The notes beneath the pieces were generated by a model. That model ran no database searches. It saw only the letters and a list, made by a program, of their open reading frames with translations, and was not told where the DNA came from. From Girardia tigrina (Eukaryota): a DNA stretch of 64,000 nt. This document shows positions 48 to 60,920 of the stretch, one piece after another. Location of the stretch: assembly GCA_001938485.1 (NCBI GenBank), contig MQRK01230377.1, forward strand, positions 1 to 64,000, written 5' to 3'. A program made the translations under genes and the position numbers. Each line of letters begins with the position of its first letter. Positions within the stretch are counted from its first letter, which is position 1.

Positions 48-655
48 ATTTAGAAACCTATTTCTGAAATCCTTCTACTCAATCAATTTTCTTCAAACTT
101 TGCACACTTACTCATTCTCGATGACAATAAATGATTATGTAAAAATTTAATCAAAAAAAACTTTTTGAGATCCAAAAATGTGAAAAAAACAAAAAATTCG
201 GAGTTCCCGAACAATATTAATCGCAAGATATCTATTTATAAATTATAATTAGTTTATATTGATTTTTATTGTTTTTTTAATTAAAATTTTTAAATTTTAA
301 AAACTTTGTTGGAAAAGTAGAGTTTGGATATAAAAATATAAAAGAATGGATATAAAAATTTTTAGTTTTTGATTTACTAGTTTTTGAAATTAAATTAATT
401 AACATCCAACAGTAAATTATTTATAAAGAATTATTGTGTCCTGTGTACACAAAATCAAAATGTACATGGACCATATCATGAGATTAAAAATATCTCATAA
501 CATGTTGTCTTTAAAATTTAAATCCATAAATTTTGTTTTCAGATTTATATATACATATAAAAATTTTTATGTATATAAGGAATTATTTATCTGCAATTAT
601 ATTTACCATCTTATAAGTTTCTAAAATTTTAAAAAATCAAATAAGAATAACAAAC

Positions 656-1226
656 CCTTGCAGCCTTGCTATTTGAACCAGAGGACATAATTTTATATAA
701 GGATTTTCTATATCGAAAGCTACACTGTCCTTCAACTTCAACAAATCTCTTGTTTTTTTCACTATCTTCACTGTATTTTTTAAGCTTGTTACTGGCTATT
801 TTATATGTCTGATAATCACTCCAGCAACATGGTTCCATAAAGTGTTCATTAATTCCCCAAAACAAAAGTTCTTCCTCGAAAAATGTCAGGCACACATTTG
901 GTGGAGAATGGAGTCTACCTGTTCGATAGAAATTTAAAACGGAATTAAAGCACACTGGATCACGATCAATAAACACAATGTCATCATAGTTGTGATCACC
1001 TAAACATTTATGGAGTTTGGAGTCGGAAATATTGTATAGTGTTTCATCAAATATTTCAAATATTTTCCCTCCGACGTTAATTTTCTTCGTTTTTGCTGGT
1101 GTTTTAGATTCATCCTTATAAGCCCAAACTGGAAATGTTGGTGCTTCTATATTAAATATTTTTAGAAATAGATCAAAAAATGAAACTCTTCTGTTCCACC
1201 CTCATCAAGAAACTTTTCTTTGCCAT
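656..1226 (-). CDS. Voltage-gated K+ channel, Shaw/Kv3-like, 5' exons (T1 domain); gene continues beyond the left edge
   Basis: The frame extends upstream of the called ORF to KINVGGKIFE...FIDRDP...LNFYRTGRLH...FEEELLFWGI...EPCCW (T1/BTB domain; the C-terminal part is most like Shaw). Predicted exons 1187-1226 (ATG) and 656-1146 are joined by a 40-nt GT-AG intron; donor GTTTGT follows SKAAR. Confidence 0.85.
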
Positions 1227-2439: not shown

Positions 2440-3180
2440 TTTTCAATGTGCTAGCACAATGCTTTTTAAGTTGCACATATGCAAAAGTGCAAAAATCAAT
2501 ACATAAAATTTTTTAAAAGTGCTAGTGCCAAAAATCGATATGATGTGTTTGATGCACATTTTGATTCTCTATCAGAATGTGCAATTAGAAATTTCATATA
2601 TTGATTACTTTTCCCTATAATTAGCATAATGTGCAAATTTACACAAAATGCATATCGATTTTAGAGGTACAAGGAAGCAGAACATCAAAAAAGCGCTGAT
2701 GCACTTGAATAGGAACCCATATACATACATTCAGATTCCATGTCAACATTTTCGAAAAAGTGCTTAAAAATCGATTTTTTCGTATATTTATGAAACCAAT
2801 GTATTCCATGTGTGTTATTTAACATCAAACAATACCTCGTGAATCGCCTAATGTACCCCCTCAACAATCACAAGTACCTTGGTTACCGTAACCAAGATAA
2901 ATAACCTTTTATCTTATATTTAAAAACTACATGTATAAAACTCCTATTATACTTAAAACGTGCATAGACATTATACATAACATGTACATAATCAGCTAAA
3001 TTAGCTGAGCCTAGGCATCACCTATCACAAGTACCTTGGTTGCCGTAACCATGTGACATAACCTTTTAATATATATATAAAAACCTATGTAATACCTAAA
3101 ACATGCATGGGTATTCTACACCACAAGACCCCTTACGGAGGGTCGACATCTACCTACATTGTGAAAGTTCATTACATTCA

Positions 3181-3215
<35 letters not shown>

Positions 3216-3546
3216 AAAAGTGATACATTAAAACAAACTATTATTAAAATAATTAATATATCTATTTAAATAATATGATATCTATTATATTGTTATATTA
3301 TCAACCATTACCTTATCAACCATTTACAAAAGTTACCGTATCCAAGGTGATATGGTCATGTCAGCTTATTGCACTCATCGTGTCAATGTATTGCATAGTT
3401 AACATTTTATAGTATATATTAATAGTATATATTAATATTATATATAACAAAAGTTGTTGTTTGCAAGGTTTTGAATGAATACATGTATACGACGACTATT
3501 TTCAACAAACATTTATTTGCATAACATGCACAGATGTAACAAATTT

Positions 3547-3587
<41 letters not shown>

Positions 3588-3676
3588 TAGGTTTTGAATG
3601 AAGATATAACAATATATTTGAAACACAACTTATATAGTTGTAATCACATGTCACTGTAATAGATTGTAAAATAACA
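2440..3676. repeat. Left arm of long inverted repeat
   Basis: Its reverse complement aligns with 8550-9668 with indels and (TA)n length differences; the mirrored ORFs 2685-2867(-) and 9242-9469(+) are near-identical. Confidence 0.95.
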
Positions 3677-4104: not shown

Positions 4105-7100
4105 TCACAAAAAATAATGTCCGTGATGTAATGTACTTATTCCATCTGTTAAAATATGTCGTTTATCGTCAAACCAATTTAGGCTTTTCTTCCGCATCAT
4201 TACTGTGGAGACTTTATGTTCTCTTGATTGGATCCTTCGCATTTCAGAAATTATATTGATTTGTTCCCGCAGCACTCTCATATAATCATGGAATCCGATT
4301 TGGTTTGCTAACATTGCCCGTTGAATTCCCTTTGCCCTTTCTTTGATATTACCATCCACATCAATGGCATACATCTTAGACGGTAGTGCCACGAATCTAG
4401 AGATGATTTGACCATTGATTTCATCCTTAAACTTTCCAAGGACCTTTTCATTTGATATTCGAATAATTTGGATGGTCCTTTGGATAGTCTGAGGTATCCA
4501 TATGTTGAGCCATTTGAAAAAACTCCGCAAACAGAACTTCTGTATGAATCTGATAGACAAGGCTATCAGTATCCATATACATTAACTGTAAATCTTGGAA
4601 TTTGGGGACCATGATGTCATAGTGGAAGTCATACATCAAGGTCTTGGATAGATCCAGGATTGACATCCCCACATATATTGGTTTTCAGTGTATATAATAG
4701 TTCTGTGGAAGATTGATTTGGCAATGAGCTTCTTTGCCCGCTTCCAATCATATACCAGTTCGATGTTGATTCTGTTGCGTATATTCTCCATTGTTTTGCC
4801 AAAAACGCTGTTATTGTACAGTTTGAACTGATCCTTTTCAAAGTCGTTTTTGGCATTGGTCCTCAGATTGGTATTAAAGTCAATATATGGCTGAAGCCAT
4901 TTTAACTGACTAAACTGAAGAGCCCAATGTATTTTTATGATTATGAGACCATTCTTAATAGCTTGTTGAAGATTGATGTAGTGGGCTACATATTTTTGTT
5001 TATTTTCCAAGTGACAGAGCAGCTTCTTATGTTTTCTATTAGGTGGACATTTTCTCTCAGCAGAAAAGGCAGCTGCTCATGTCTTGTATGGAAGGATTTG
5101 GGATATTCAACATCAACTTCCAATATGTAACCCACATCTCCATTAGGGTCCATTTTTTCTATTGGAATTTCTTCTGGTTGATCCATCCATTTGAAATTGT
5201 CGTAAGGCAGTGGAGCACTCATTACCTAATCATATAAGTTATTGGCATTCAAGTATGTTTTGTATGAAAATGCCTTGGACGGATCATAAATTTTCATGTA
5301 TTTGTTGTTTACTTCACTGTATCGATGAATAGATTGACAGATTCCACCTGGGATAACTTTTTCCAGCATGATGATCATGTCATAATCTTTCAGGACTTGG
5401 AGCCTTATGCATGTATATTTCAGCATTGCTGCCAAACTCATACCTGGTTGTGTAAAGAAATGAGCTGGATATAACTTGTGGCTCTTAAGTGTCACATCCC
5501 GAAAGCTCTCAAAGACATCCGTAAGAAGCGGCTTAACAACACATCACTATATTCCCCAAGTGTTTGGCATTTGAAAGCTTGCCAGACATTTTGTGCATAC
5601 TGATAATCAGCATCACTAATGTCAGTGTCATTAAGCTTGTTGTAAAATGCCTCTTTTGCTGGCAATGTTGTTTCATCCAGCGATCTCCATGATGTTTTGT
5701 AGCCATAGGGGAATATTCCTTTCCTTTTTACCAAGTCAAATTATTTGGGAAGAACTTTTTAGTTTCCTTCAGTTCATCTGCTGGAAGATTCTTCACACGG
5801 CTGTCCAGCGATGATGACATGAACCCGAAACTATCGATGAATCGTAGCTTAATTCTTCCCACATGCTTGGTAAATGTGATGTATTTTTCCTCACTATTTG
5901 GAATAACATCTATATTCCCTTGGATTTTTCCAAGTTCTCTTACTATGAAGTGGGAGTCATATTCACTAAGACTGTGGAATACAACAGGAACATTTGTAGA
6001 TGTTTTACATCGCAAATTGCAGTTATTACATACTGCTCCTCGATATTTTCTAGTAAAATGACAATGATCTTTGACTTTGTTATTGTCATTTGTGAATGGC
6101 TTTTCACACATGTAACATTGTGTTGTCTTGTTCAATTGATATTTTTCTCGCAAAGTCATCACCATATTTAGCTTGTGTTGTTCCAGCATGTCTTCAATTG
6201 TATGGGCATAAGTTTCCATACGTTGCATAAAATGTTCCGCTGCATCTGGACCTCTGTATAGGAATGACTCCTTGTCAATACCCAATGCATACATACAGTA
6301 TGATGATAGCTCATGATACTGGTATGCTGTCGTACGGCTACGTTGCGGATCCGGATTGCACGTTTGGATTGGGCTTAGAATGGCTTCAAAGTCACAATAT
6401 ATGATAATGGGAACTTTCTGCATCTTTTCATATTCTTTGAATTCGATATAATCTTCCTTGGGAAATTCTGCTCTGATACAATGAGTGTTATTGCAGTAGG
6501 CTTTGTGCTCCTCTAAATTGATTGTTGCATCATCACCATTGAAATGAGTAAAGCATCTTTTACAAATCTCTTTACTTTTGTTATGTTTTGATATTTGGGA
6601 GCTTAAGAGACGCTCAAAGTTCTTGATCCAGATGAAATTCCTCTTTTCTTCATGATGTAGCAGAAGCAAATCTCTATGATCCTCTAATTCTTCCTTATAT
6701 ACAAGTAAGGGATAAAAATTTTCATTCTCTAATCCAAAGATTTTGATTGAGATATTGTTGATGCCTCCAAATTTAGTGACTTCATCAAAGCTCGGTGGGA
6801 ATGATATGCAGTTGAGGTCATGTGTGCTGCAGATTGTTGTATTTAGATACTCATGATGCATTGTTTTGATCTTTAACGAATTTTGATAGTATCGCATACT
6901 TGAAGCACATATTGTCATTATTTTTTACATTGACGCATACCTTTTTTATTAGATATCCATTCAGTAAGTGACATGTAGGAGGTGCCTGTCATTGGTGAAT
7001 ATTTATGAACATAGATAATCAATTGATCTTCAGATGACAGAGTCCATCCACTTTTCTTCTCCTCGCTATCGTAAGCTTCCTTTATTATTTTGACATGTTC

Positions 7101-8328: not shown

Positions 8329-8647
8329 ATGAATACATTGATATTCATTTTTAACAAAATGCTGCGTAATATCAATTATAAAGGATTTACTGGTGATTGT
8401 CTGAAAGATCTCCATTTTGGTACTAAACCGTGTCAATGTGTTTTACACTTTGCGGAGTACACTATCATATTCTTCCGCAATGGAAAATGTAGAATAATGG
8501 GCTGTAAGCAACATGGTGATCCATCCACTTTACCTTACAATATCACTAATGTTACTTTATAATCTATTACAGTGACATGTGATTACAACTATGTAAGTTG
8601 TGTTTCAAATATATTGTTATATCTTCATTCAAAACCTAGTATATAGT
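8329..8647 (+). pseudogene. Divergent TBP-like (TATA-binding protein fold) ORF, one repeat plus the start of the second, with a premature TAA at 8560-8562
   Basis: MLRNINYKG resembles TBP LQNIVST; TIIFFRNGKCRIMGCK resembles TALIFSSGKMVCTGAK; read-through gives NVTL[Q]SITVTCDYN, resembling DFKIQNMVGSCDVK. The left inverted-repeat copy has CAA at the stop position. Aligned by eye only. Confidence 0.65.
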
Positions 8648-9668
8648 CGTCGTATACATGTATTCATTCAAAACCTTGCAAACAACAACTTTTGTTATAT
8701 ATAATATTAATATATACTATAAAATGTTAACTATGCAATACGTTGACATGATGAATACAATTCGCTGACACGATGAGTGCAATACGTTGACGTGACGATA
8801 TCACCTTGGATACGGTAACTTTTGTAAATGGTTGATAAGGTAATGGTTGATAATATAACAATATAATAGATATCTTATTATGTAAATAGATATATTAATT
8901 ATTTTAATAATAGTTTGTTTTAATGTATCACTTTTAATATATATATATATATATATATAAATTGAATATAATGAACTTTCACAATGTAGGTAGATGTCGA
9001 CCACCCGTAGGGAGTCTTGTGATGTAGAATACCCATGCATGTTTTAGGTATTACATAGGTTTTTATATATTAAAAGGTTATGTCACATGGTTACGGTAAC
9101 CAAAGTACTTGTGATAGGTGATACCTAGACTCAGCTAATTTAGCTTATTATGTACATGTTATGTATAATGTCTATGCACGTTTTAAGTATAATAGGATAA
9201 AACGTTATATATTTTAGTTACAGTAACCAAGATACTTGTGATTGTTGATTGGGTACATTAGGCGATTCACGAGGTATTGTTTGATGTTAAATAACATACA
9301 TGGAACACATTGGTTTCATAAATATACGAAAAAATCGATTTTAAGCACTTTTTCGAAAATGTTGACATGGAATCTGAATGTACGTATATGTGTTCCTATT
9401 CAAGTGCATCAGCGCTTTTTTGATGTTCTGCTTCCTTGTACCTCTAAAATCGATATGCATTTTGTGTAAATTCGCACATTATGCTAATTATAGGGAAAGA
9501 TAATCAATATATGAAATTTCTAATTGCACATCCAGATAGAGAATCAAGATGTGCATTAAACACATCATATCGATTTTTGGCACTAGCACTTTTAAAAAAT
9601 TTTATGTATTGATTTTTGCACTTTTGTACATGTCCTACTTAAAAAGCATTCTGCTAGTACATTTAAAA
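8550..9668. repeat. Right arm of long inverted repeat
   Basis: Mirror of 2440-3676 (e.g. atcgatttttggcactagcacttttaaaaaatttt vs aaaattttttaaaagtgctagtgccaaaaatcgat). Confidence 0.95.
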
Positions 9669-9774: not shown

Positions 9775-10212
9775 GGTCACGGTTCCCATGGATATGGGTA
9801 CCGTTACCATGGTTACAACCAGCTTGAATGACTGTATCAGTTGCTAATGAAAAATGTCCCTTGGTTACCGTTGCTAAAGATATTAGGACCTTGGTTACCG
9901 TTGCTAGGGTGATCGGAACCGTTGCTATGGTAACTGTGACCGTTTCTATGGTAATCTGAATCGTTTCTATGGTAACTGCGACCTTGGAAACGACCTCAAC
10001 GTTTGGTAACCTATACTCGTTGCTATTGCAAACGGTAAGCCCTCGCAACGTTATGAGATTTCGAAGGGGGGAGGTCAGTAACACAACTACCTTTTACCAT
10101 GGCTACAGACATGTTTTCATTGGTTACTGTACCGATTTCCATAGTAACTAGGCAATTTCATTTGTTATCGTGGTCCGTTGCCATGGTGACGTCACCCATT
10201 CCATGGTAATCA
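9775..10212. repeat. Array of X-box-like palindromes (GTT.C[CT]ATGG.AAC), partly with 21-bp period
   Basis: gttaccatggttac 9803, gttgctatggtaac 9921, gtttctatggtaat 9942, gtttctatggtaac 9963, gttgccatggtgac 10177, plus degenerate copies. Confidence 0.8.
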
Positions 10213-10354
10213 AGATTATTGGAAAATTTATTGATTGATGCAGAACTCTCATTATCCCCCTACTAAATAAAAACAAAATCAATTAACCAAGTTTTCAAAA
10301 TAATTACTTTATACCTAATAACTCGATAACTATTGACTTTGGAAGAAACCTTTC

Positions 10355-13300
10355 TGTAATATGAATTAAAATTAATAATTCATTTGTTTTAATCGTGTAA
10401 CATTATTCTTCCCGACGACAAGCTATCGCGGCATCGATGAAGGGGATAAAATTCATATATTCGGTGCGGCTGTTCAATGGGATGGGAGATTTCGAATCAT
10501 GGTCCCGTAAATTTGAAGTATTGGCAACCATATGCGGGATTGACAAGGCGAACGCGATTGAAATGACGTTAGAAGGCCGTGTGTCCGAGCTGTTCTCAGG
10601 TATGGAGAGCAGTGCCTGTGAGGAATATTTTAAATTGTTTGAATGTGTGAATGTATTGATGCTGTATGTTGATTTGAGTATGCTGAACTTAGAATGGTGA
10701 TTCTGCCACCCATATGGAAATTTGTATTTCTTTTAAATTTAAAATGATTGACTATTCGAACATAATTAAAATAATAAGTTTTTATTTTTTTAAATTAAGT
10801 TTAATATTTGTTTTAAGAAAAGAAAAGCATTTAATTAAATTTAAATAAATTTAATAAGATTTAAATTAAAGTCAATTTAAAAATTTGATAACGTTTTTAT
10901 AATTTTGTGTTTTTATATATTTAGAAGTGATTTAAATTATTATTTTTAATTAATATTTTTAAAAATTTATGTGTTTTTAAAAGATTAAGAAAAATTGTTC
11001 GAATAAACATGATTAAAAAGAGAAATAACGAAACCAATTAGAGCGATGTCAAATGATGAAAGATCTTCGGAGAGTTGTAATAACTCTAAATGTTGTAATA
11101 AAAATTCAAATGAGAATTGTCTCAATGTTCTTAATAGTGCCCAATGCGACTACGAGACGGTAAAATTGACGCTAATGGATGCGTTCGGACATGACTCGAA
11201 AACCGCTTATGATGATTTACGCATGAGAGTTCTTCAGCACGTTGAATCTATTGATGAATTCGTTGCAGCATTAAGGTGATCTGCAAAGATTGCGTGCCAC
11301 AATTAAGAGCTGCAAGAGCCGCTGGTCAGACAAGCCTTCCTGGCGGGTCTTCCAGATGAAGTTGCAAGGTACATCGCATCGGAAGCCGTGAAAGACGGGG
11401 TGACGTAGCAGCAATTAATTGCACTTGCACGTGCTCTACTTAGCACTAATCGATTGAGATCTGGAGTGACTGGGGCCACGACAGTGTCGGGGAACGACAC
11501 CGCCGGGAAAAAGAAGGTACCGACATCTGCAGTGACATCAGAAGTCAATTTGGCAATTGCGCTGAGATGCTTCAATTGTGGCAGGAATGGAAACCGGTAA
11601 AGCGACTGATGGACCGCACTGAAGTGGGTGGTGAATTCTACGGTTGCACGCCAGTCCAGGGGTTCTTAATTTGCAGCGCGAGGGGCTTCGTTGCAAGGAC
11701 TGCCCACGCAGAGGCCAGCCGGCGGGAAACAAATAGGAGGATCTCATGGTTGCGCGAGTGTAATGCCGCGAGGCATTGCGCAAAATTATCAATAGTTGAT
11801 GTGCTGATTGAAGGGCAGTGCGTGAGAGCGCTCGTGGACTATGGATGTTCTACGTCGATGATCGACGAGAAATTGGTGGATTCAGAAAAGGTAGAGTGAG
11901 TATCATGGTGGACCTTGTTCGCGAAGAACTTCAGCGGGATCGGAGATGGATGTAATAACCCAACTAAGGGGGGTCGCAATCCGTGGAAATGGAATTCTGT
12001 CGGCTTTCACGGCTAGCCAAACGAGTGAGTTTGCCCTGTAAAAGAACCGCAGTCAAACGACCAGAACGGGACATTCGTATCGGAATCGAATGGGGTTCTG
12101 TGATACGGTCCGGCTCGAATAACCGATACGAACTTCACTGCGAAATTTGAGAGGGTTTCTTGGTCTGTTAAGTGGCACTGGAATGGGGGAAAAGTACCCC
12201 CGGTACATGATAGTGTGGTCCAATACGCATCTGTGAAAATCTACCAGGAAGAAGTTAGTGCAGAACTTCATGAGAGAAAAAAGAGGAGGTGGTGGTCAGA
12301 ATGTGAAGGCCTACGGAAGCCAGTACTGCCACTTATGGCCATAGTTCAAAAACCCAAGGAGAAATTCTGTACGGTTCTCGATTTCAGAAAGCTGAACGAG
12401 TCAATATCGAGTCACACAGCAGAGATTCTTGTCTGTGGAGACAAGATCAGAAAGTGGCACCGCATGGGAAGATATTTGAAAATCGTTGACTCAAGGCGTG
12501 CATATTTGCAGATCAAGGTCGATAAATCGCTATGACCCTATTCGGTGGTGAGACATCAGGGCCGATCTTGGTATTTAACTCAGCTGGGGTTTGAACTAAG
12601 TGTTGCTCTGAAGATAATCCAGAAGAACATGTGCTCGGATCAAACCCAGCAGTTCAGTTCAGTACCGACGCGTACTAAGATGATATTGTAGTGGATACCG
12701 CCAAGATTCCGATAGAGAGGCTGATGGCAGTACTTAAGCGATTTTGTCTGGAAGCCAAACCCTCGGTGGCAATAGATGACAGCCGCATCCTGGGATTGGC
12801 GGTGAAAGCAGAGGCAAACGGTACGCTTCAATGGAGGCGTGATGGTGATGTTCCGGAACTCCCAGAAAAATTAACTCGCCGCAGTATTTTTGCATGGACA
12901 GGACGGATACTGGGTCATTACCTAGTGTGCGGGTGGTTGAGGCTGTCTTACAGTATTATGAAGAGGGTCGCTGGAGAAGGAAGGTCGAACCAGAAGCGAC
13001 TACAATGGCAAAGCAATTGGCAATGAGAATCAAAGAATAAGACCCAGCTCGAGGCCCTTTGGAAGTCCCGAAGACTGAGAAGTGTAAAGTGTGGTTTAAT
13101 GCCAGCTCAATGTTAATTAGTGTATCGAGATCGGGGGAGAGATTACTGTAGATTTTTGCTGGCTCCGGTCAAAAGAGGATTGTAACCACATAAATTTGGC
13201 TAAACTCGACTCGGCAAACCGGGCCATCAAAGAGGCGATGAAATGGTGACTCAGAGGGATCGAGCTTTTAACAGACTTGGTAGCAATTTGCAAGTGGCTC

Positions 13301-14718
13301 AAGAACGCAGTGTCCGGCGCAGGACCCATCAGATCTCAGGCGCTGAGTGACTTATTAATCAGACGAAGGATTATTTTTTTAAACAGGTCGCTGAAGAGGA
13401 GCTGCTTGTCATTAAGATCACCCTGGTCCAATCAGAAATGAACAAAGCAGACAGACTAACTTGTGTACCAGATCATTGTTGGAGTATAGTCCAACTGAAG
13501 CAAGGAATAGCCAGGGTAGCATTAGCAGAGATAGAAAAAATGGAAATGAGTGATGCCCTGAATCGGCTGCATAACATAAACCACTTCGGGGTCAGGTGCA
13601 CTATGTTCCTGGCAAGGAAGGTGTGAGGTCCAAGGAAAGTCACCGAGGATCAAGTGAAAGCCATCGTGAATGGTTGCAATCAATACATGTCAATTGATTC
13701 AGTGCCAGTCCAGTGGGACAAAGAAGAGATCAACTTAAGGAAAACTTGGCAGCGGCTGGACATGGATGTCACACACATGGGGCAGCGAAATTCTTTACAG
13801 TCGTGGATTGCGGGCCAGGGTGCTTCATGGTGTGGAGCTAAATAATCTCAGAAAACGAATCCGACATATATGCTGCGATGAATAGAATTTTGTGTGAGTT
13901 CTGACCCCCTGAAGAAGTCCTTTTAGATAATTTTAGCACGTTCAAAGGAGCAAGGATAAAGAGCTTGCTTCAAAAAGCTTGGGTTGAGGCGAGATATCGA
14001 TGAGTGAACCATCCGAGCGGCAATAGCATTGTAGAACGGAGCCATCGCACGATTAAAAGGATGGTTGTTCGGAACGGCAGAGACGTAAAAGAGATGGTCA
14101 CTTGGTATAACACGACAACAAATACGGATGGTATAATCCCAGCGTCAACAGTTTTCAACCAGAAAAGGAGGCTGCTACTACCAAGGACATTTTTTTCAGG
14201 TAGAGCCAGAACAAATTTGAAATTTGCAGTCGGAGACGAAGTATTCGTCCAGCCCGCATCGCCATACAACTGCATGACCAAGTGTAAACGCGAGAAAGTG
14301 ACAGAGATTCCATCAGTACAGCAGGTGGAAGTGGACGGAACTCCATATAACATCAGCCATGTTCACCGATTGAACCCGACATCAGCAGCCGAACTTGAAT
14401 ATGAAGTGGGCAGGGATGAGGCAACTGAAGAAAATGGTGTAGTGCAGTTCGAACAAGACGAGGGGATGAATCTGAAAATGAGGATGCAGAACTGCAGCAC
14501 ACTGTCTCAGAGGAGAAAAAACCCAGCAGGGCGGTGCGTCGACCAGTGCATTTTGATGATTATGTCTGTGCGAGTGCTCGAAGAAAAAGTGTAAAATGAA
14601 TACCCCCTTGCTCAGACATTGCATATCTATGTGCCTTGAGGGAAAGGGTGTGTGTAATATGAATTAGAATTAATAATTAATATGTTTGTATCGTGTAAAT
14701 TTATTCTTTCCGACAACA
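10355..14718 (+). mobile_element. Ty3/Gypsy LTR retrotransposon, degenerate, 66-bp LTRs
   Basis: LTRs 10355-10420 and 14653-14718 (TG...CA), TSD CTTTC, PPT gagggaaagggtgtg. Contains gag, CCHC remnant, protease (ALVDYGCS), RT (VLDFRKLN; Y*DD), RNase H (NKADRLT) and integrase (SGNSIVERSHRTIK) in Gypsy order. Confidence 0.93.
10617..11136 (+). mobile_element. Solo LTR (TG...TA family) inserted in gag
   Basis: TGTGAGGAATAT...GTTCTTAATA flanked by TSD GTGCC; removing it rejoins gag (SGMESSA|QCDYETVK). Confidence 0.88.
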
Positions 14719-15099
14719 CTTTCTCTAAAAAATTGTTTGTCTTTTAACTTTTTTTTAATTGACACCTTATTTGACCAAAAATTAGGTCATTTTTGTAAAA
14801 ATTTTGTTGCGTCATAATTATATGATGCTATATCTGAAATCAATTTTCTCTTCGATAAACCTTCTCTATCCACTATGTCTATCATAATATGCAAAAATAA
14901 GCTTTTGAATACCCTGTGAGACACCATGCAGATAAAAGTACTTACTTTGTAAAAAAAATCATCATTTTAGGCTGAAAAAACACAAAACTTTGCATAAATA
15001 TGAACGCATTTTTATTATTAAATGTCGTTTTAAGTCTACTAAATGCATACAACTGTGTTTGTGGAATTATATCACTGTTCATGAAAAATTGTGATAAAT

Positions 15100-18385: not shown

Positions 18386-19178
18386 GTTTAAAAAAATAAT
18401 CGGCTTTTTTATATATATAATTATATATAAATATGTTTATATCTTTTAAAACAGTTTTTACGATTTAAGGTAAACAATAAGTTGTTAGTATTAATTCAAC
18501 AACTTTATTTGTTATTGATAAAATAAAATCTTTAATATTATGAAAATTAAATAATTTGAAATTACAATTCACAAATATAATTTCCATTTGTACAATCTGT
18601 AATAATTAAATACTGTAGAGAATCTCTATAATGAATTTATCTTTAACAAAGACTTTAGCAGATTGTGTTGAGCAAATTTTCCCATTCAAACGAATTTTTT
18701 AGTCTTACACTATGCAAAAGAATGCGGAGAAACCCATCACTTTATTTTTAGGTCACTAAGTCATACGTCCATACGGCGCTGCACTATTAAAAAATAAAGA
18801 ATACACTGTGTTAGGATAGACTAATTTATAAATTTTTGAATATTTGATAATATTTAAAATCAGAATTTTATTGAAAAGAATTTTTATAAATAAATCATAT
18901 TTTCTAAATAATTAATTGAAGTTAATTTTTAAAAAAGTTAGAAATTTTTATTCAAAAGAATTTTTATAAGTGAAAATACTCTCTAAATAATTTATAAATA
19001 AAAAGTTCTTTCCTAATCCAAGTTAAATTAAAGAATAACTCGAAAATTTAAAAATGGAGTAAAATCAAATAATATAACTCCAAAATTAATTTAATATTTA
19101 AACATATGGCTAAATAACGAAAGTAAAACATTACGTACAGAAGATTTTATAATGGTGTTTAAAATTGGGTTAGTTAAT

Positions 19179-22040
19179 TGAAGAAGGCCTAAATAGAAAT
19201 ATATTTTTAAATACTCTAATATTACAGCAACTATTAATTTAAACAAACGGATTTATTAATAATTTAATAAATCCATATAAAATCACACCACATGCCCCCG
19301 TACCCTTGAGGCAAATAAGCATACTCCGCTTGAACAAGGGGAAATTTTTTCACCATCGCATACTGTTGCGCCCGCACACATGAAGTCTTCAAATCGGGTC
19401 GGTCTGCGAATGGCTCTGCTAGGCCGCTCCACAGCGGGCTCCTCGGTTGGTCCAGATTCATGTACAGGTTCTGATTCATCAACCCGAAGGCCATCGCGAT
19501 GCGCCGATCGCATTTCAACGTTTTCCCTCACTTCGTGATCTGAACGAAACCGAGCTGATCCTGACGGTGCATGCCGCACATGGTTGACGTGATACGGCCT
19601 CCCATCCACTTCCACTTAATGTACTGATTTCGTCCCCGTGACTGTTCCGCGCTTTCACCTCGACATGCAGCTGAATGATGGCGTCGGTTTTACGAACACC
19701 CCGTCCCCGACAGCCAGCTCCGTTGGTGATGGATTATGCTGCGATCCCGGCTATGCTTGATTGAAAGTTTTTGGCAATCGTAATCTTCTCTTTTGTGCAA
19801 AAACCGTCGACGCTGGAATTACTCCATTTGAATTTGGAGTCGTATTGTACCAAGCAACCATCTCTTGGGCGTCCCTGTGCCCTGAGCGACCATTCTCTAG
19901 ATCGTTCGGTGGTTGCGTTCCACAATGTCATTGCCACTTGGCCGGTTTACGCATCGAAATCGGGCCTCAATTCCAACCTGAGCAAGGAGGCCCTCCATCC
20001 CGATCCACTGAAGGTGTTATAATTATATAACAGAACTTCTTCTGGTGGCCCAAACTCGTTCCACACGCTGCTCATGGCTGAACATTTGTCCGGTTCGCTC
20101 TCTGATGCGATTTGGTGCCATATTGCAAACCGCCCTGGGCCGCAATCGACCATTGTGAGGAATTTTTTCGGTCCGACAAGTACCACGATTGACCCTCATG
20201 ATGTACTACTTGATATTCCAACAATGATTGATCCACCTTGATCTGCAGGTAGGCACGCCGTAAGTCCAATATCGCTAATTTGCGTCCCATGCGGCACCAA
20301 TTCCGTAGTTTCTCTACGCACACTAGACTCAATGCGGTGTAGCTAGAGATTGAATCATTCAAGTTCCGGTAATCGAGGACCGGCCGGACCTTCTCCTTCG
20401 CCTGTTGCATGACCGNCCGCCATTAAAGGCAGTGACGGTCGCCGTGGACTCTCGCATTCCACTAACCCCCCATTTGATTTCCACTCTTTTAACTTCAAAT
20501 TTACTTCGGCTTGATGCTCTTTGACCGATGAATATTCTGCCGCGCTGTTGTGCACTGGAGGAGCTCGTCCTTCCTTCCAGTGCCACCGCACCGTCCAGAA
20601 TTGACCGTCAAAATCTGCGGTAAAATCGGTGTCCGAAATCTGAATTGTTGCCCCCTGTCTGGCGGCCCTCTCCTGCTTCGAATCAACCGTCATCACTCCG
20701 ACAGGTGACGACAGTACTGCTACCGTCGGATCCTTCCCGTCGATCTCTCCCTGGCTTCTGATTGGAACCAGTTGATTCACCCAGACCGAACGTTGGTTTC
20801 GCTCCGCTTTTCCCGACGTGGACACCTCCCAACATGGAAATCATGTCCATTCCCAGCAACATATCCGCGCCTATTCCACTCAGGTTTCGGGCGAGCAGAA
20901 CTCAACACCGCATCTGACACCCGGACACGCTGACGTCCAGCCAGGAACCGAATTTAATCACTGTTGAACCGAGAACAGTGTTTAGCTTCTCGGATACTCG
21001 TTCTGAGTGATTCTCCGGAACCAACCGCTGGTTGATCATTGATACCGAGCACCCGGTATCCACCAGTGCTCTCACAGAGTGACCACCTACTCGGATTTCG
21101 ACTGTGGGCAGATGCGTGGCATAACCCGCAGATACCCCACCCACGAAACGGTGAGGGTCTGCTAGTCTTCTCCCGGATGCTGCAAGCGGCGTGGGCATTC
21201 AGCACAAAGGTGGTCTGCTAAATTACAGATGCAGCAATGCCTCTGCTTGCCCTTGATGGTGGATTGATCCCATTCTTCGTCCTTCTTTCGGCTCCGCTGC
21301 CTGCGGCCCAACCGGTTGTAGTTCGAGTGATGCGCTTGATTTCCTCCATTTTTGTATTTTGTCGCCGCCGCCGTCACGTTTGCCGGTTCATTGTTTCCCG
21401 GTGTGTTATCATCGGCAGCAAACGATGACGCCATTGTCCTCGCGTTACTTATCCCCCGCTTGCTGATGCGAAGCAGCACGCGTGCCATCGATATTATTTC
21501 CTCAAGCGAAAATTCTTTCCTTACCGCTTCTGCCGATAGATGCTTTGCGATCTCGTCTGGTAGACCGCATATAAAGGCCTGTCTCAGAAAAAATTCCTGG
21601 GACTCTTGCCCGTGACAAACCGTTGTTACGAGCCGTCGCAGATTCTTTAAATGCTTTGCCTGGTCGAAGATATCTCAGGTCAGGACCGTAGGGGCTCAGC
21701 AGCGCTTCTTTTACCGCCTCGTTGCATTCCTGCTTTCCGCTCGATAACCCAGAAAAAAATTCAAACGCTCGACCCTCGAGTAGCATTGGCAGAGCAACCG
21801 CCTTTTCAATGTCGCAAACGGCTGCCGTCACCTCAAATTTGCGACACTATTCTGCGAAATTTCCGGATCCATCGAACAACTGGACTACATCCGTGAATCT
21901 TATTTTGTTCATCAGCCGCGATTGCTTGAAGAAGACCTGAATAGAAATATATTTTAAAATACTCTAATATTACAGCAACTATTAATTTAAACAAACGGAT
22001 TTATTAATAATTTAATAAATCCATATAAAATCACACCACA
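19179..22040 (-). mobile_element. Ty3/Gypsy LTR retrotransposon, internally deleted, 114-bp LTRs
   Basis: LTRs 19179-19292 and 21927-22040 (3 mismatches), TSD TTAAT. Contains gag, CCICNLADHLCAEC knuckle, protease ALVDTGCS, and the RT N-part fused to the integrase core; same lineage as 10355-14718. Confidence 0.93.
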
Positions 22041-22294
22041 TTAATAAAAATATTAGGGTTTTAATTTTATAAGTCGTAAATAAAGTCGCAAATTTATAAT
22101 ATTAAAATTTTTAATAAATAACGCATAAATAATTATAATTTAATTAAAATTATATATTTATATTTATAGTTAGCAATTTTGATACCTAGCTTGCGTAATT
22201 TAAGAAAACATCGTTCCTCATAAATTTGTTTGAATTATAATTAATTGTTAAATTAATAAATGTTTGTGTTACGAATATGATCACGAACCCAACA

Positions 22295-23190
22295 CACGGG
22301 AAAATAAATTTTAATTTTTTTCTCCATACTTTTCAAAATAGTTTATCTTTAGGATTTTGTTGAGCTGATTTCAAATATGTATTCAGAATTTCCTTAACAC
22401 ATACCATTGCAGAGAAATTTTTATTTTACAGATTATAATTATATATAATTATACAGCGAACACAAACACAAAAAAAATCTTGTTGCTGCAACATATTTTG
22501 TCGTTCCTGTAAAGTTGAAAATGATTTGCAAAAAAATGATTTTCTCTTTTTGGCGTTGCCTGGTTTATCCTTGATTAGATTTTATCTGCAGACAGCTTGC
22601 ATAGATGCATTTCAGTTACCCTGGAATCTTCGCTCCACTATAGCAATGTCTGGTGAAATTCTTCTCCGTGTTTGTCCCTGTTAGAAACAAATCGAGATGC
22701 GTGTACTGGAAATGTATTTTGAGGGACACGTTACATTTTAACTGCATGTATGCTTTGATTATATATTCAACCAGCTGTACATAGTTTGATGCCTTGTTGT
22801 TATCGAAGAACATCTGAACTACATCTTTGAACGCATTCCATGTCATTAGTTCAACTCTTTGTAACAATCTTTCAAATTGTTGGTCGCTAAGAACTTTTTT
22901 TTTAATATATAGTCCAACAAAAAAAATTTAATTTATGTAGGCATCACTGATCCGGGGAAACAGCCCTCTTGTATATTCAAATCCTTCTCTGCCCTTATTC
23001 ATCGCTTTAACAAAGTTTTTCATAAGCCGAATTTTGATATGAAGTGTCGGTAAAAGAATCTGAATGCTATCACCTTCTGTATATCCGCTGTATCAATTTT
23101 AGCTTTGGGGAAATACTGCCGGGTCAAATACAATGTTTTCTCGACACAAAAAAGATGCTGATAGTAAATATCCGCAGATCAAGTTCACTC
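22295..23190 (-). mobile_element. DNA transposon remnant, Chapaev3-like (CMC) transposase C-terminal part
   Basis: HIKIRLMKNFVKAMNKG...WNAFKDVVQMF..NNKASNY..LV...CNVSLKIHF..HLDLF; CAC-type terminus near 22295. Family assignment is from recalled motifs. Confidence 0.6.
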
Positions 23191-23194
23191 ACCG

Positions 23195-23590
23195 GAAAAT
23201 TCGGCCCCGTCGTTGCTACGGTAGCCACAGCTGAAGACCCTAACCACTAAAGAGAAACTATGGTCAATCGATCTGCTTTGTTCACATTGAATGGAATCAA
23301 TGTCACCTGAATGTCTAATTTGTATTTGTTGATGATATTTGATATTATCGCCAACAACCTACCTGCCAATTCCTCGCCAAGTCTTTTCACTTTCATAGGC
23401 TTATCACCAGCAACTGTGGACCTCACCTACCCAAACATTGATTTGGAATCAGTAGATATTTCGATTGTACAAAATCTCCACGCGCATAATAAGTTCAAAC
23501 CTTTGATCACCGCTTCAAAAATTTTAATGTGCTGTCCATCGTCAATTTTCATGAGCCAAGCAGAATCTTTGATGATTTTTGTTTTGAACT
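23195..23590 (-). mobile_element. Gypsy RNase H fragment
   Basis: Manual translation gives DSAWLMKIDDGQHI..FEAVIKGLNL..W....ISTDSKSMFG*V...NKADRLT, matching the RNase H of the 10355 element. Confidence 0.75.
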
Positions 23591-52600: not shown

Positions 52601-54234
52601 ACTTTTTTTAATTTAAATTGAAAATTCAATTTTTAAAAATATTTATTTATTTTTATTATTTTTTTAATAAAATTAATTTTATTTTTTACTTATGCAATTA
52701 TTAAAAGAAAATTTTTTTTGAAAAAAATGATTGATTTTTGTATTTTAAATTTGATTAATTAAAATATTTTGATTAAAAATTTGATTAAAAATTTTGATTA
52801 ATTGAAAAATTTTTGAAAAACATACAAAATTTTATATTGTTAAATGGACATTATATTAACAAATGGTTCTAATATTATGTGTGTTAAGGGGTAGAAAATA
52901 TTGTTTCATATATTTTCTATTCTCAAATGGACATTTTATTATCAAATGGACATTTGAGTGAGTACGTTTTTTTAATTAACATTTTGATTGGTTAAATTTT
53001 ATTTTTCTTTCAATTTTAGATATGGATTTATTATCGAATGGATTCATGTTATAATTTAATGGACCTCACTGTATATAACGCTTCACGTGTCACTCTCTCC
53101 CAATAATTCCTAAATTATATATTAAAATTATCAAAAATTAACTAAAAAATAATTAAAAACTAAAAAGAATATTAAAAATCCTAAAAAAATAGTATTATAT
53201 TATATATATAATCTATTATAATTGGCTTGTTAATTTTAATTTAAAATTAAATAACTTATTTATTATATTTAAAATTCATTAAAATAAACGATTCAAATTT
53301 ATAATTACAGCGAACCAAAAAAGATATGAAACTAAATCGAATTTCCCCTACATTTACACTGTCAAACCCAATGATAACCAAATACACACGAAAACAAAAA
53401 CCAAATGTCACTCACCCGATATCGATTCGACGAAATATCCTTCAAAATATTACTGCAAATTTTCAACTCGTCCGACAATTTCACGACCGGAATTTTCACG
53501 AGCGCGATCTGCTCATCGAGCGACTCGTTCTTCAGCGAAATCGACGGACTGGGAGTCGGCGACAAATCGTAACACGATTCGACTTTCCGTTTTTTCGATT
53601 TGGATTTCGCGTCCGGAGAAATCGAGCAATTGCTCGCATTGGTCGATGTCGCTTCGTTGTAATTCGAGGTCGATTTGATGCGCTTAGTGGTCGGCCGGAG
53701 CGATTTCTTTATGTCGCACACTGGCGGCGGCTCCGAGGACGAATCGTTGTTAATACTGCTGGATTTCGTGTCTTTCTTGGCGCTGTTGGTGTTGCTGGCG
53801 CCGGAGGAGATGTCGTTTTCTTGGGACGGCAATTTTTCGAGTTTCGAGTTGAAGATGTTCTCGAGCGTCAGAGTCATGCTGATCAGATCGATTTCCGGAG
53901 GATTGAAGATGTAGCAATTCTGGAACACGAGTCTCACATCGGTGATGCACTCGTCGGCGTTGTAATAGAATTTCTTGATCAATCGATTTTTGATAGTGGT
54001 AAAATCCATTGGATAATGCACGATTTTCGGATAATCTGGGATATTGAGCGCCGTATGATCGACCGGATGGAGAAACGGAAAGGAATATTTGTGTCGCATT
54101 AGTTGCGGAAGGATTTTCTTTTTGATAAATTGAAGTCGATTGGTGAGAACATTGGCCGGACGAGGCAGACCGGAACTATCGACAGATTTGTCGATTTGTT
54201 GCGTGATTTCGACACAATCATCCGAAACGAGCAT
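31673..54234 (-). CDS. BET-family bromodomain protein (BRD2/3/4, fs(1)h-like), short form BD1-BD2-ET-SEED, ~704 aa
   Basis: Exons 53416-54234 (BD1: [35 protein letters not shown]), 45320-45706 (BD2), 41739-42132, 38748-39161 (ET: [30 protein letters not shown]) and 31673-31773 (Ser/Asp tail, TGA). All introns are GT-AG with compatible phases 0,0,1,1; total 2115 nt. Confidence 0.92.
31879..32233. repeat. Inverted pair of Penelope-type pLTR fragments with degenerate minimal hammerhead motifs
   Basis: CTGAAGATG...GAAATT.A.TACAATAAATTTT at 31879-31923(-) and 32192-32233(+). Confidence 0.55.
31995..32096. mobile_element. 102-bp mariner-type MITE
   Basis: TA|ttgggtgtacaactaattaatttcgtattttttt ... 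aaaaaaatacgaaattaattagttgtacacctaa|TA. Confidence 0.8.
33002..34130 (+). mobile_element. pogo/Tigger-like deletion derivative
   Basis: TIRs (ctccctatta.aagcca) with TA TSD; HTH N-terminus [12 protein letters not shown] and C-terminal NKPF..YLR...GWITKAW..ITPEII. Confidence 0.8.
34200..34620 (+). mobile_element. Penelope-like GIY-YIG fragment
   Basis: [21 protein letters not shown], paralogous to 46819-47094. Confidence 0.7.
36504..37141 (-). mobile_element. Tc1/mariner (maT/DD37D-like) deletion derivative
   Basis: TIRs cag.gt..tccgtttaaattg.gac; transposase N-terminus RSAEII...KVTVYRIAK...EGSAT...HNRS. Confidence 0.7.
37287..37934. mobile_element. Solo LTR
   Basis: TGTTGGG...CCCAACA termini with 4-bp TSD GTTG. 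Confidence 0.75.
43851..44497 (-). mobile_element. HINE/DINE-1-like non-autonomous Helentron
   Basis: Subterminal inverted repeat agcgcaatttcc/ggaaattgcgct, microsatellite-like tract and ACTTG|TTT end; near-identical copy at 61899-62601. Confidence 0.7.
44520..44960 (+). mobile_element. Tc1/mariner transposase C-terminal remnant
   Basis: [20 protein letters not shown] resembles WPPYSPDLNPLDFFLWG.LK. Confidence 0.55.
46733..47280 (+). mobile_element. Penelope-like element 3' end (GIY-YIG endonuclease + pLTR)
   Basis: [29 protein letters not shown]...[13 protein letters not shown], followed by a hammerhead motif and AATAAA. Confidence 0.85.
47201..47237 (+). ncRNA. Minimal type I hammerhead ribozyme (Penelope-associated)
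   Basis: tgca-CTGAAGA-t-acc/gaaat/ggt-GAAA-cgcgT-A-tgta: core intact, palindromic ACGCGT stem III, 4-bp stem I. Confidence 0.75.
49437..49893 (+). mobile_element. 5'-truncated solo LTR (same family as 10617-11136, ending in CA)
   Basis: Colinear with ~10691-11136 (agaatggtgattct...aattgtctcaatg.tcttaa); a matching 5' piece starts at 48548 but the TSDs do not match. Confidence 0.75.
51276..52117. mobile_element. Unclassified long-TIR DNA element with internal Cys-containing coding remnant
   Basis: atagttccgtacgggccccag ... ctggggcccgtacggaactat with ~90-bp imperfect TIRs; related copy at 62915-63480. Confidence 0.7.
52212..53071. mobile_element. Tc1/mariner-type MITE
   Basis: TA|cagtgaggtccatt ... 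aatggacctcactg|TA. Confidence 0.8.
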
Positions 54235-55158
54235 TTTCGATTAATAATTGATGAGTGACAACTGAAAATCGGCTTTAGAAAAACCGTAAAATCATAATTT
54301 GAAAATAATATTGAAAATGGTGAACAGAAAGTGAAATCAAAATTTACATTAAACATAAAAGTAGTAAAACAAAATTGTTTGGAATTTTTTTCGTTTGTTT
54401 TTTGTTTTTTATGTGTAAGATTTTGCGATATGAATTTCGACAAAAAAATATAAATATGAATTTTTCTTGGAAGAGAGAAAAAAATTTTTTTAAATTTCTC
54501 TTTCTGTTGATTTTTTGTGGATGTTAGGAAAATTTGAAAATTGAAATGTTTTTTGTTTTCATTTATTATATGACTTTGATAGAAGTGGTTTTATTTTAAT
54601 AATAATTTTTTTTAATTTTTTAGAGAAATAATTAAAAAATATATTTTTATTTTCATGGTGCACTTTGTATGGATTCTAACTTATTTTTTTATTAGATTTT
54701 TCAAATTTTACCATTATTAAAATGGTAAAGAATTACTAAATTTATCATACTTAAAAATAATTACTTCCTATCAAATTTTTGAAAAACTATAAAAAATTAT
54801 TTAAATTAGTGTAAAATCGAATCAAGGAATTAAATCGATATTTGCTTAAAATTAAATTTAAATGTATAAAAATAAATTACAAATTCGAATGCATAAATCA
54901 AAAGTTAAATATAGTTTATTGAATACAAAGTAGATTAATATAAAATACCATGATATGTAAAATATTAGGGAATAAAAAAGTTTTTTTGAAAAAAAAACTG
55001 TACTTAAATTATTTTAGGGAAATACCTTTGATAATACATTAGTTTTAAATACATAACGTTTTCATTTTAAATTTTAAACTGAGAATTATTCATTTTAAAT
55101 TGAAATTTCCTGAAAATTTTTAAATATTTTTATTTCAAGAATTTTAAAATCTTTTATA

Positions 55159-60440: not shown

Positions 60441-60920
60441 ATGAAGCTGGTCAGGTAATGGATTAAAAACGGAGAAAAACAAATGCAATGAATATTTAAA
60501 AATTTTTATTAAGATTTTTAATGCGCCTGTCTCATGAAACTGTGACTATTGAAATGAAAAACGGTTCAATTGTCCATGGGACAGTCGCCGGTGTCGACAT
60601 GGCAATGAACACGCACTTGCGATCAGTTAAATTGACACTGAAAAATAAAGAACCGATAAATCTCGACACATTCAGTATCCGCGGCAACAATATCAGGTAT
60701 TTCATCTTGCCGGAAACACTCCCGCTCGATACGATGCTCATTGATGACACCCCGAAAGTCAGCAAGAAGAAGAAAGAAAGTTTGTTTTTATTGATTTATC
60801 GCAATCGCTGGGTTTACATTTCGATATTCAGCGACGTCTCTGGCGCGAGGAAGAGGCCGTGGAGGACCGCGAGGTCGCGGACGAGGCCCAAGAGGCAGAG
60901 GACGCGGCAGACCGCGCTAA
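60441..60920 (+). CDS. SNRPD1: Small nuclear ribonucleoprotein Sm D1
   Basis: Exons 60441-60454, 60514-60779 and 60832-60920 (59- and 52-nt GT-AG introns) give [22 protein letters not shown]...[12 protein letters not shown]...[24 protein letters not shown]. Confidence 0.97.

What the first reader, a model, noticed from the sequence alone, without database searches (positions are those of the whole stretch)
10421..10440. Gypsy PBS without TGG that reads as the complement of a tRNA 5' end
Seen: right after the 5' LTR, element 1 has AGCTATCGCGGC and element 2 (21915-21926, minus) has AGCAATCGCGGC. Their LTRs are not similar, and the shared sequence stops after 12 nt. The reverse complement GCCGCGA-T-A-GCT has the form of tRNA nt 1-12 (acceptor strand, U8, R9, G10, C11, U12; cf. 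tRNA-Phe/Thr GCC..GATAGCTCAG), and the one difference between elements maps to position 9, which is often methylated. Known primers are tRNA 3' ends, anticodon-cleaved halves (copia, Ty5) or self-priming (Tf1). Inference: priming by a D-arm-cleaved 5' tRNA fragment, an unusual mode.
Basis: partly seen in the sequence, partly recalled or inferred. Interest (0 to 1): 0.72.

Follow-up and report, generated by a model that had tools for sequence, protein, structure and literature searches.

The report
Retrotransposons primed by tRNA front ends
Thousands of jumping-gene copies in this genome, and relatives from other hosts, carry a primer site that matches the first 12 letters of a host tRNA instead of its usual tail, so they likely start copying themselves with a short piece cut from the tRNA's front end, a priming mode that our searches did not find described.

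Summary
Confirmed and extended. Both window elements have TG..CA LTRs, 5-bp TSDs and the 12-mer directly after the 5' LTR. CA+AGCWATCGCGGC occurs 1,015 times in the genome (control 0). It complements nt 1-12 of the host tRNA-Phe(GAA), a gene seen only in two overlapping pieces. Elements picked by pol similarity alone show two more classes in the same register: the exact complement of intact tRNA-Lys(UUU) nt 1-12 (about 2,200 sites) and of tRNA-Tyr nt 1-12 (81 sites, one G-U pair). Relatives from other hosts carry AGCTATTTCGGC, the complement of the published human-type tRNA-Phe 5' end. No TGG site and no self-priming complement were found. The position-9 'methylation' idea fails: 28 of 29 siblings of element 2 have T there. 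The lineage (DUF7047 pol; sponge to nematode) is Gypsy-like in layout, but membership was not shown. A cut is needed to give a 3'-OH; I favour the element's own RNase H (Tf1-like, in trans) over a host-made fragment. Neither the cut nor the fragment was observed. The reviews read list three primer types, not this one.

The parts
10350..10354 (+). Left 5-bp target-site duplication of element 1 (CTTTC); right copy at 14719-14723
10355..10420 (+). Element 1 5' LTR, 66 nt, TG..CA
   Evidence: 86% identical to 14653-14718
10421..10432 (+). Primer-binding site AGCTATCGCGGC, complement of host tRNA-Phe(GAA) nt 1-12, no spacer after the LTR
10437..11800 (+). Decayed gag region (first ATG at 10437; boundaries approximate), interrupted by an AT-rich repeat at about 10617-11137
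   Evidence: sequence; repeat matches; gag identity inferred from position and a CX2C motif, no Pfam hit tested
12119..14390 (+). Decayed pol (RT, DUF7047, RNase H, integrase) with stops and frameshifts
   Evidence: tblastn with P0004, 24-41% identity in six pieces
14637..14652 (+). Polypurine tract and 2-nt spacer before the 3' LTR
14653..14718 (+). Element 1 3' LTR
21927..22040 (-). Element 2 5' LTR, 114 nt, TG..CA; TSD ATTAA at 22041-22045 and 19174-19178
21915..21926 (-). Element 2 primer-binding site AGCAATCGCGGC; the A at its fourth position is a private mutation
   Evidence: 28 of 29 siblings have T
19541..21111 (-). Element 2 pol remnant, internally deleted (protease, part of RT, integrase)
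   Evidence: tblastn with P0004
19179..19292 (-). Element 2 3' LTR
   Evidence: 97% identical to the 5' LTR

Best explanation
The 12 bases after the 5' LTR are complementary to nt 1-12 of a host tRNA (Phe, Lys-UUU or Tyr, by family), and this lineage likely primes minus-strand DNA with that 5'-terminal piece after it is cut from the tRNA, most likely by the element's own RNase H. Shown: position at the LTR edge, complementarity, ends of the motif at tRNA nt 1 and nt 12, three tRNA classes in one register, change with host, absence of TGG and of a self-primer, conserved RNase H active site. Inferred: (1) the tRNA 5' strand is opened and anneals to the site; (2) since the tRNA runs on beyond nt 12 into the rest of its body, a cut in the D-stem after nt 12 (possibly 10 or 11) is needed to give a 3'-OH; (3) RT's RNase H makes that cut at the edge of the RNA:RNA duplex, as proposed for the Tf1 self-primer, but here in trans on a tRNA; (4) RT copies U5-R from there and the rest of the cycle is ordinary. 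I put about 0.95 on the site being kept for pairing with tRNA nt 1-12, about 0.85 on priming by a cut 5' piece, and about 0.55 on the whole chain with the element's RNase H as the cutter.
For: Counts: Phe class 1,015 (control 0); Lys-type pattern 2,247 (control 7; 98 of the 100 listed are AGCTATCCGGGC); Tyr class 81 (control 4). Unbiased set: of 40 loci picked by pol similarity, 20 carry a class motif upstream of pol (6 exact Phe, 2 decayed Phe, 10 exact Lys, 1 Lys with one change, 1 Tyr). Of the 16 with a credible LTR pair, 14 have it directly after the 5' LTR, 1 has an N run there, 1 has neither, and none has TGG. Against 28 distinct host tRNA genes at every offset, the Lys site pairs 12/12 and the Tyr site 12/12 (one G-U) at tRNA position 1; the best 3'-end match of any class is 6-7 of 12. 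tRNA-Phe: four loci begin GCCGCGATAGCT and continue as a D-arm; two loci hold a GAA-anticodon tRNA body whose acceptor strand TCGCGGC-A pairs with that head, with a 16-nt overlap. Other hosts: AGCTATTTCGGC in 5 of 13 metagenome loci and in one MAG contig, AGCTATCGCGGC in 1, AGCTGTTCCGGC in 1, AGCTATTCCGGC in 1; GCCGAAATAGCT opens the human Phe(GAA) tRNA primer in PMC10505166. RT-RNase H tree of 37 copies: Lys and Tyr classes each form one clade (UFBoot 100); Phe-versus-Lys identity is 19-42%. RNase H D468, E503, D527, D586 are kept in 86, 85, 86, 86 of 86 relatives. Duplex -23.5 kcal/mol against 14.2 to open nt 1-12 of unmodified tRNA-Lys. Precedent for an RNase H cut in an RNA duplex: title of Levin 1996 in the reference list of PMC4600332.
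Against: No fragment, particle RNA or RNA-DNA junction was observed. No intact tRNA-Phe gene was seen in the served assembly; its 5' end rests on two overlapping partial copies. Twenty of the 40 pol-picked loci and 6 of the 13 metagenome loci gave no motif (truncated, decayed or too short upstream; not each resolved). The 3' LTR is preceded by 2 variable bases after the G run (8 different dinucleotides in 17 elements, at least one a mis-set boundary). This suggests 2-nt ends processed by integrase, so the 'AG' at the site's LTR side could be that overhang and the primer only 10 nt. The tRNAs of the other hosts were not seen. An intact RNase H is needed by any LTR element, so it does not single out step 3.
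Confidence: 0.55

Rival explanations
1. Same primer, but made by the host: a pre-existing 5' tRNA fragment (cut in the D-loop and trimmed, or cut in the D-stem) is captured by the site, with no cut by the element.
For: Copia and Ty5 use tRNA halves with internal 3' ends (PMC10886601; PMC6317226); a free fragment need not be unfolded. Only some tRNAs that share the same nt 7-12 are used: 0 of 100 listed hits were Thr-type although Thr genes are present, which could reflect which fragments exist.
Against: The end point is the same in three tRNAs and in several hosts, and lies inside the D-stem exactly at the LTR edge, which fits a cut measured by the duplex. 5' fragments are usually longer, 14 nt or more (recalled, not from a call).
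Confidence: 0.27
2. The tRNA stays whole and RT primes from a 2'-OH at about nt 12, giving a branched RNA-DNA, as retrons do.
For: It explains the same complementarity with no nuclease; the nucleotides next to the LTR edge are the same in all classes.
Against: No such priming is listed for LTR elements in the passages read; the retron parallel is recalled. The shared bases are simply the conserved D-stem.
Confidence: 0.07
3. The 12-mer binds tRNA or tRNA fragments for another purpose (packaging, dimerisation, control of gag translation), and priming happens by some other route.
For: The gag ATG often follows within 0-8 nt.
Against: The motif sits with no spacer at the LTR edge where minus-strand synthesis must begin, and no other primer site was found there. 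The ATG distance varies from 0 to 32 nt.
Confidence: 0.06
4. Self-priming as in Tf1, or priming by the 3' end of a tRNA or another RNA.
For: The lack of TGG usually points to self-priming (PMC5006619).
Against: The longest exact complement between site and own 5' LTR is 3-7 nt in 24 elements with LTR pairs. The best tRNA 3'-end match is 6-7 of 12, in a partial set of 13 anticodon types. Another RNA would have to vary in step with three tRNA 5' ends; rRNA and snRNA 3' ends were not tested directly.
Confidence: 0.02

Closest known systems
Half-tRNA priming of Drosophila copia, yeast Ty5, plant Osser/Bryco/Bianca and fungal Copia/Helenus (PMC6317226, PMC10886601; passages)
   Same: The primer is a 5' part of a tRNA with an internal 3' end; no TGG; families switch tRNA type in a fixed register.
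   Different: There the site pairs with the anticodon stem-loop and the mode is reported only in Ty1/copia lineages and their dependants. Here it pairs with nt 1-12 up to the mature 5' terminus, the end falls in the D-stem, and the pol order is PR-RT-RH-IN.
Tf1/Tf2/Tj1 self-priming, Tf1/sushi group (PMC4600332; passages and reference titles)
   Same: A short 5'-terminal RNA piece pairs directly at the LTR edge and has to be cut free; RNase H is implicated (11-nt primer length recalled).
   Different: The primer is the element's own transcript; here no such complement exists (3-7 nt) and the partner is a host tRNA in trans.
Canonical Ty3/Gypsy and retroviral priming by a tRNA 3' end
   Same: Overall layout, TG..CA LTRs, PPT, TSD and use of host tRNA.
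   Different: No TGG; the opposite end of the tRNA is used.
Troyka / Kuafuorterviruses (PMC12440569 parts 1 and 3 of 5; PMC11673190 parts 1-2 of 3)
   Same: Animal LTR lineage with an RT far from typical Gypsy.
   Different: CG..CG termini, 3-bp TSD and IADD/VADD/LADD there; TG..CA, 5-bp TSD and YIDD here. The Troyka text has no occurrence of PBS, primer or tRNA.
Oikopleura Tor-4 elements, suggested to be primed by spliced-leader RNA (recalled; not confirmed)
   Same: If the recollection is right, a non-canonical host small-RNA primer in a Gypsy-like animal element.
   Different: Not a tRNA; PMC4402516 had no passage on priming, so this stays a lead.

Membership tests
LTR retrotransposon (general) | Direct LTRs with TG..CA ends, TSD, PPT, pol with PR/RT/RH/IN | tested here: met
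   (24 elements with LTR pairs; TSD exact in 13, one mismatch in 4, 2 or more mismatches in 7)
Ty3/Gypsy (Metaviridae) | Domain order PR-RT-RH-IN | tested here: met
   P0004 and P0096 against Pfam
Ty3/Gypsy (Metaviridae) | RT/RNase H groups with Gypsy | tested here: inconclusive
   RVT_1 below its cut-off (28.1 and 23.1 bits); RNase H hits RVT_3 and RNase_H, not PF17917/PF17919, which are also absent from all 120 rows listed in each; the profile meets Ty3 Gag-Pol in one stretch, over integrase. No tree with named reference RTs could be built.
Canonical tRNA 3'-end priming | TGG-initiated site complementary to a tRNA 3' end | tested here: not met
   0 of 16 LTR pairs; best 3'-end match 6-7 of 12
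Half-tRNA priming (copia/Ty5 type) | Site complementary to the anticodon stem-loop | tested here: not met
   Best matches lie at tRNA position 1
Half-tRNA priming (copia/Ty5 type) | Ty1/copia domain order (IN before RT) | tested here: not met
Tf1/sushi self-priming | Site complementary (10 nt or more) to the element's own 5' LTR | tested here: not met
   3-7 nt in 24 elements
Tf1/sushi self-priming | RNase H-dependent release of the primer | not testable with these tools
   Active-site residues conserved; activity untested
Troyka / Kuafuorterviridae | CG..CG termini, 3-bp TSD, non-YxDD motif | tested here: not met
   TG..CA and 5-bp TSD; Y322 in 82 of 86, DD in 86 of 86
BEL/Pao | Peptidase_A17 and other BEL-type Pfam domains | tested here: not met
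   Absent at E<=0.01 in P0004 and P0096
Named invertebrate Gypsy clades (Mag, CsRN1, Tor2, MolGy1-16, PolGy) | Placement by RT/RH tree with the clade's references | not tested
   Reference sequences not available through the tools; PMC6238403 and PMC8556966 have 0 occurrences of PBS or tRNA in the main text

The most novel reading that the evidence does not exclude
A pan-animal LTR lineage (sponge, Hydra, bryozoan, molluscs, arthropods, nematode), distant from typical Gypsy RTs, is defined by a fourth, undescribed priming mode: it uses the first 12 nt of tRNA-Phe, -Lys(UUU) or -Tyr and its own RT/RNase H cuts the host tRNA in the D-stem, so the element itself makes 5' tRNA fragments and escapes silencing by 3' tRNA fragments aimed at ordinary primer sites.
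Probability: 0.4. Interest if true: 0.88.

Novelty: new variant of a known kind. Interest (0 to 1): 0.8.

Why it matters
The review passages read name three primer types for LTR elements: whole tRNA, anticodon-cleaved half tRNA and self-primer (PMC6317226). A site that pairs with the 5'-terminal 12 nt would be a fourth, and it links the other two odd modes: a tRNA fragment as in copia, with the geometry of Tf1. It marks a large and old lineage, with thousands of sites in this genome and relatives across animals, that primer searches built on tRNA 3' ends would score as lacking a primer site (3'-end searches are the stated method in PMC6317226 and PMC13524379). It would give very short 5' tRNA fragments a defined role, point to a new cutting activity of RT/RNase H or of a host nuclease, and predict that these elements are not targets of 3' tRNA fragments but may be targets of 5' ones. 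The predictions are sharp and testable with small-RNA and junction sequencing.

Tried and rejected
Position-9 modification as the cause of the T/A difference: rejected (28 of 29 siblings have T; 99 of 100 listed hits have T). A mismatch spectrum failed because only exact hits were listed (2,049 sites within one mismatch, control 14). Search for an intact tRNA-Phe gene: none found; the Rfam search scored only 63 of about 57,000 candidates and returned no Phe; no read-level view of that gene was obtained. An exact tRNA-Tyr partner: heads beginning CCGATG exist (24 of 100 listed), but none of the three fetched was called as a gene, so the G-U pair with the intact gene is the safer reading. Thr and Lys(CUU) classes: 0 of the 100 listed; Cys, Ala, Ile and Thr(AGU) classes were not searched. 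Sequencing runs: no RNA holder listed. Viral contigs: no relatives. Rfam on the window: nothing. Structure prediction: machine busy three times, no model. Atlas search of a host bromodomain ORF did not place the host. Earlier scan findings: none on this mode. Literature: ten searches; the exact-string search listed 17 of 21 papers holding one of five 12-mers, none by title or abstract on a retrotransposon primer site of this kind. One paper look-up timed out. Repbase, GyDB, subscription journals and all supplements were not seen and could hold a prior note.

Full report
Observation. The window holds two decayed LTR elements. Element 1 (+) has LTRs at 10355-10420 and 14653-14718 and the TSD CTTTC. 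Element 2 (-) has LTRs at 22040-21927 and 19292-19179 and the TSD ATTAA. Each 5' LTR ends in CA and is followed with no spacer by AGCTATCGCGGC or AGCAATCGCGGC. Two matches in the window compare with 0.04 expected. The window lies in G000, a 1.43-Gb eukaryotic assembly; its host was not identified and is probably an invertebrate animal (inferred from the relatives below). CAAGCWATCGCGGC has 1,015 matches there against 0 for the control, and 2,049 sites lie within one mismatch of ACAAGCTATCGCGGC against 14. Thirty fetched hits come from many LTR families and vary freely after the 12th base.

The partner tRNA. Four loci begin GCCGCGATAGCT and continue for about 30 nt as a tRNA D-arm before breaking off; ARAGORN calls no gene there. 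Two of three loci hold the rest of a tRNA with a GAA anticodon, ending in the acceptor strand TCGCGGC-A, which pairs base for base with GCCGCGA; head and body overlap by 16 nt. So host tRNA-Phe very likely starts with the exact complement of the site, but no intact gene was seen; the tRNA arrays of this assembly carry many N runs.

The decisive evidence does not depend on tRNA-Phe. I searched the genome with a related pol (P0002) and took 40 of the 54 matches with longer flanks (L099 is one of them), then looked upstream without choosing by motif. Twenty carry a motif: 6 exact Phe-type, 2 decayed Phe-type, 10 AGCTATCCGGGC, 1 with one change from it, and 1 AGCTATCATCGG. The other 20 gave none. 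Of the 16 loci with a credible LTR pair (two microsatellite pairs, L134 and L161, left out), 14 have the motif at the LTR edge, 1 has N there, 1 has neither, and none has TGG. AGCTATCCGGGC is the exact complement of nt 1-12 of intact host tRNA-Lys(UUU) genes, and AGCTATCATCGG pairs with nt 1-12 of intact tRNA-Tyr with one G-U. Tested at every offset of 28 distinct tRNA genes (13 anticodon types, a partial set), the best match of each class lies at position 1, and 3' ends reach only 6-7 of 12. Genome counts are 2,247 for the Lys-type pattern (control 7; 98 of 100 listed exact, none Thr- or Lys-CUU-type) and 81 for Tyr (control 4). Pol similarity follows within the locus in 4 of 5 Lys and 9 of 14 Tyr loci long enough to test. 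In an RT-RNase H tree of 37 copies (L073 dropped for lack of a hit; midpoint root only, so no direction is claimed), Lys and Tyr each form one clade with UFBoot 100, while Phe-type sites are spread over several deep branches, with 19-42% identity between Phe and Lys copies. At least two switches of tRNA thus kept the same register.

Other hosts. The lineage has 849 relatives at E<=1e-50 among 8,000 candidates scored. Named ones come from Watersipora, Hydra, Oratosquilla, Trinorchestia, Trichuris, Plakobranchus, Sycon, Aplysia and Nymphon. Of 13 metagenome loci, 7 carry a motif about 0.9-1.1 kb before pol: AGCTATTTCGGC in 5, AGCTATCGCGGC in 1 and AGCTGTTCCGGC in 1, at a verified LTR edge in 4. 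Four others are too short upstream, L223 has an LTR pair with the site region deleted, and L222 gave none. Of 12 loci in MAG contigs I examined the 7 with a full pol match: L271 has AGCTATTCCGGC, L272-L274 (one contig) AGCTATTTCGGC, and L268-L270 none. GCCGAAATAGCT is the start of the human Phe(GAA) tRNA primer in PMC10505166 (one passage). The tRNAs of those hosts were not seen, so host-by-host agreement is inferred.

What does not hold. The A of element 2, opposite tRNA nt 9, is private: 28 of 29 siblings have T, as do contigs of depth 9,366 of 9,696 in run X1. Self-priming is not supported: the longest complement between site and own LTR is 3-7 nt in 24 elements. 'Gypsy' holds for domain order only: RT scores below the RVT_1 cut-off, RNase H hits RVT_3 and RNase_H and not the Gypsy-type models, DUF7047 lies between them, and Ty3 is met over integrase alone. 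The lineage is not Troyka or Kuafuorterviridae.

Mechanism. With nt 1-12 paired antiparallel, nt 12 sits at the LTR edge and the rest of the tRNA runs on from it, so a 3'-OH there needs a cut in the D-stem (logic, not observation). The far end of the motif coincides with the mature 5' terminus, which explains why conservation stops at 12. For unmodified tRNA-Lys the duplex gains 23.5 kcal/mol against 14.2 for opening nt 1-12. I favour a cut by the element's RNase H, whose four acidic residues are kept in 85-86 of 86 relatives, by analogy with Tf1 (PMC4600332, passages; Levin 1996 seen as a title only), because the end point is fixed relative to the LTR across tRNAs and hosts. A host-made fragment is the main rival; 2'-OH branching and a non-priming role are minor ones. 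The exact end is open: 2 variable bases separate the PPT G run from the 3' LTR (8 dinucleotides in 17 elements), so integrase probably trims 2 nt, and 'AG' could be the matching overhang of a 10-nt primer. Its constancy wherever the motif was intact, against the variable PPT side, argues that it pairs with C11-U12. The retained G-U in 80 of 81 Tyr sites fits inheritance of the site from the template, as described for Ty1 and Ty3 (PMC7472051, passage).

Known systems and novelty. PMC6317226 (passages) lists three primer types and confines half-tRNA primers to copia lineages; PMC10886601 (passages) says the same for anticodon-loop priming. PMC5006619, PMC3315495, PMC4402516, PMC12859917 and PMC13524379 (passages) and PMC6238403 and PMC8556966 (term counts and passages) contain nothing on 5'-terminal priming in what I saw. 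Ten searches, one with the exact 12-mers, found no description. Repbase, GyDB, subscription journals and supplements were not seen; I put about 20% on a prior note there. The earlier scan findings returned concern self-priming or primer overshoot and are not support.

Verdict. A real, lineage-wide and well co-varying primer-site class. It works like fragment priming (copia) with the geometry of Tf1 but meets the defining features of neither. New variant of a known kind; interest 0.8.

Noticed in passing
L001-L004, L087-L090, L092: tRNA-Phe is seen only as 5' heads and 3' bodies that share a 16-nt overlap; in L090 a head and a body lie about 1.8 kb apart, and L092 has an RT fragment (RVT_1, E 1.5e-11) about 4 kb after a head. 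This may be an element that inserts into tRNA-Phe genes with a 16-bp duplication.
   Followed up: partly
window 2440-3676 and 8550-9668: Long inverted arms (about 90% alike) around ORFs, one with Endonuclease_7 (5728-6924, minus; E 1.6e-7): probably a DNA transposon of unclear type.
   Followed up: no
window 9776-10200: Short 21-nt-period repeats with a GTTGCTATGGTAAC-like core just upstream of element 1 (family D10); they resemble RFX X-boxes (label recalled).
   Followed up: no
window 23130-23576 (-): A third pol fragment of the same lineage (RNase H region, 37% to P0004).
   Followed up: no
window 57515-58687 (+): ORF of 390 aa with a weak retroviral-type protease hit: another LTR element.
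   Followed up: no
window 629-1201 (-), 53362-54240 (-), 60500-60979 (+): Host-type ORFs with BTB_2, Bromodomain and LSM domains.
   Followed up: no
L268-L274: Animal-type LTR elements of this lineage sit in contigs of three bacterial MAGs, most likely host DNA binned by mistake.
   Followed up: partly
P0004, alignment A1: The pol has a weak RVT_1 match, DUF7047 between RT and RNase H, and an RNase H of the RVT_3/RNase_H type; it may be a separate deep lineage rather than typical Gypsy.
   Followed up: partly
L257-L267: 106 tRNA-Tyr heads in the genome, many truncated or decayed, some with a short intron-like insert.
   Followed up: partly
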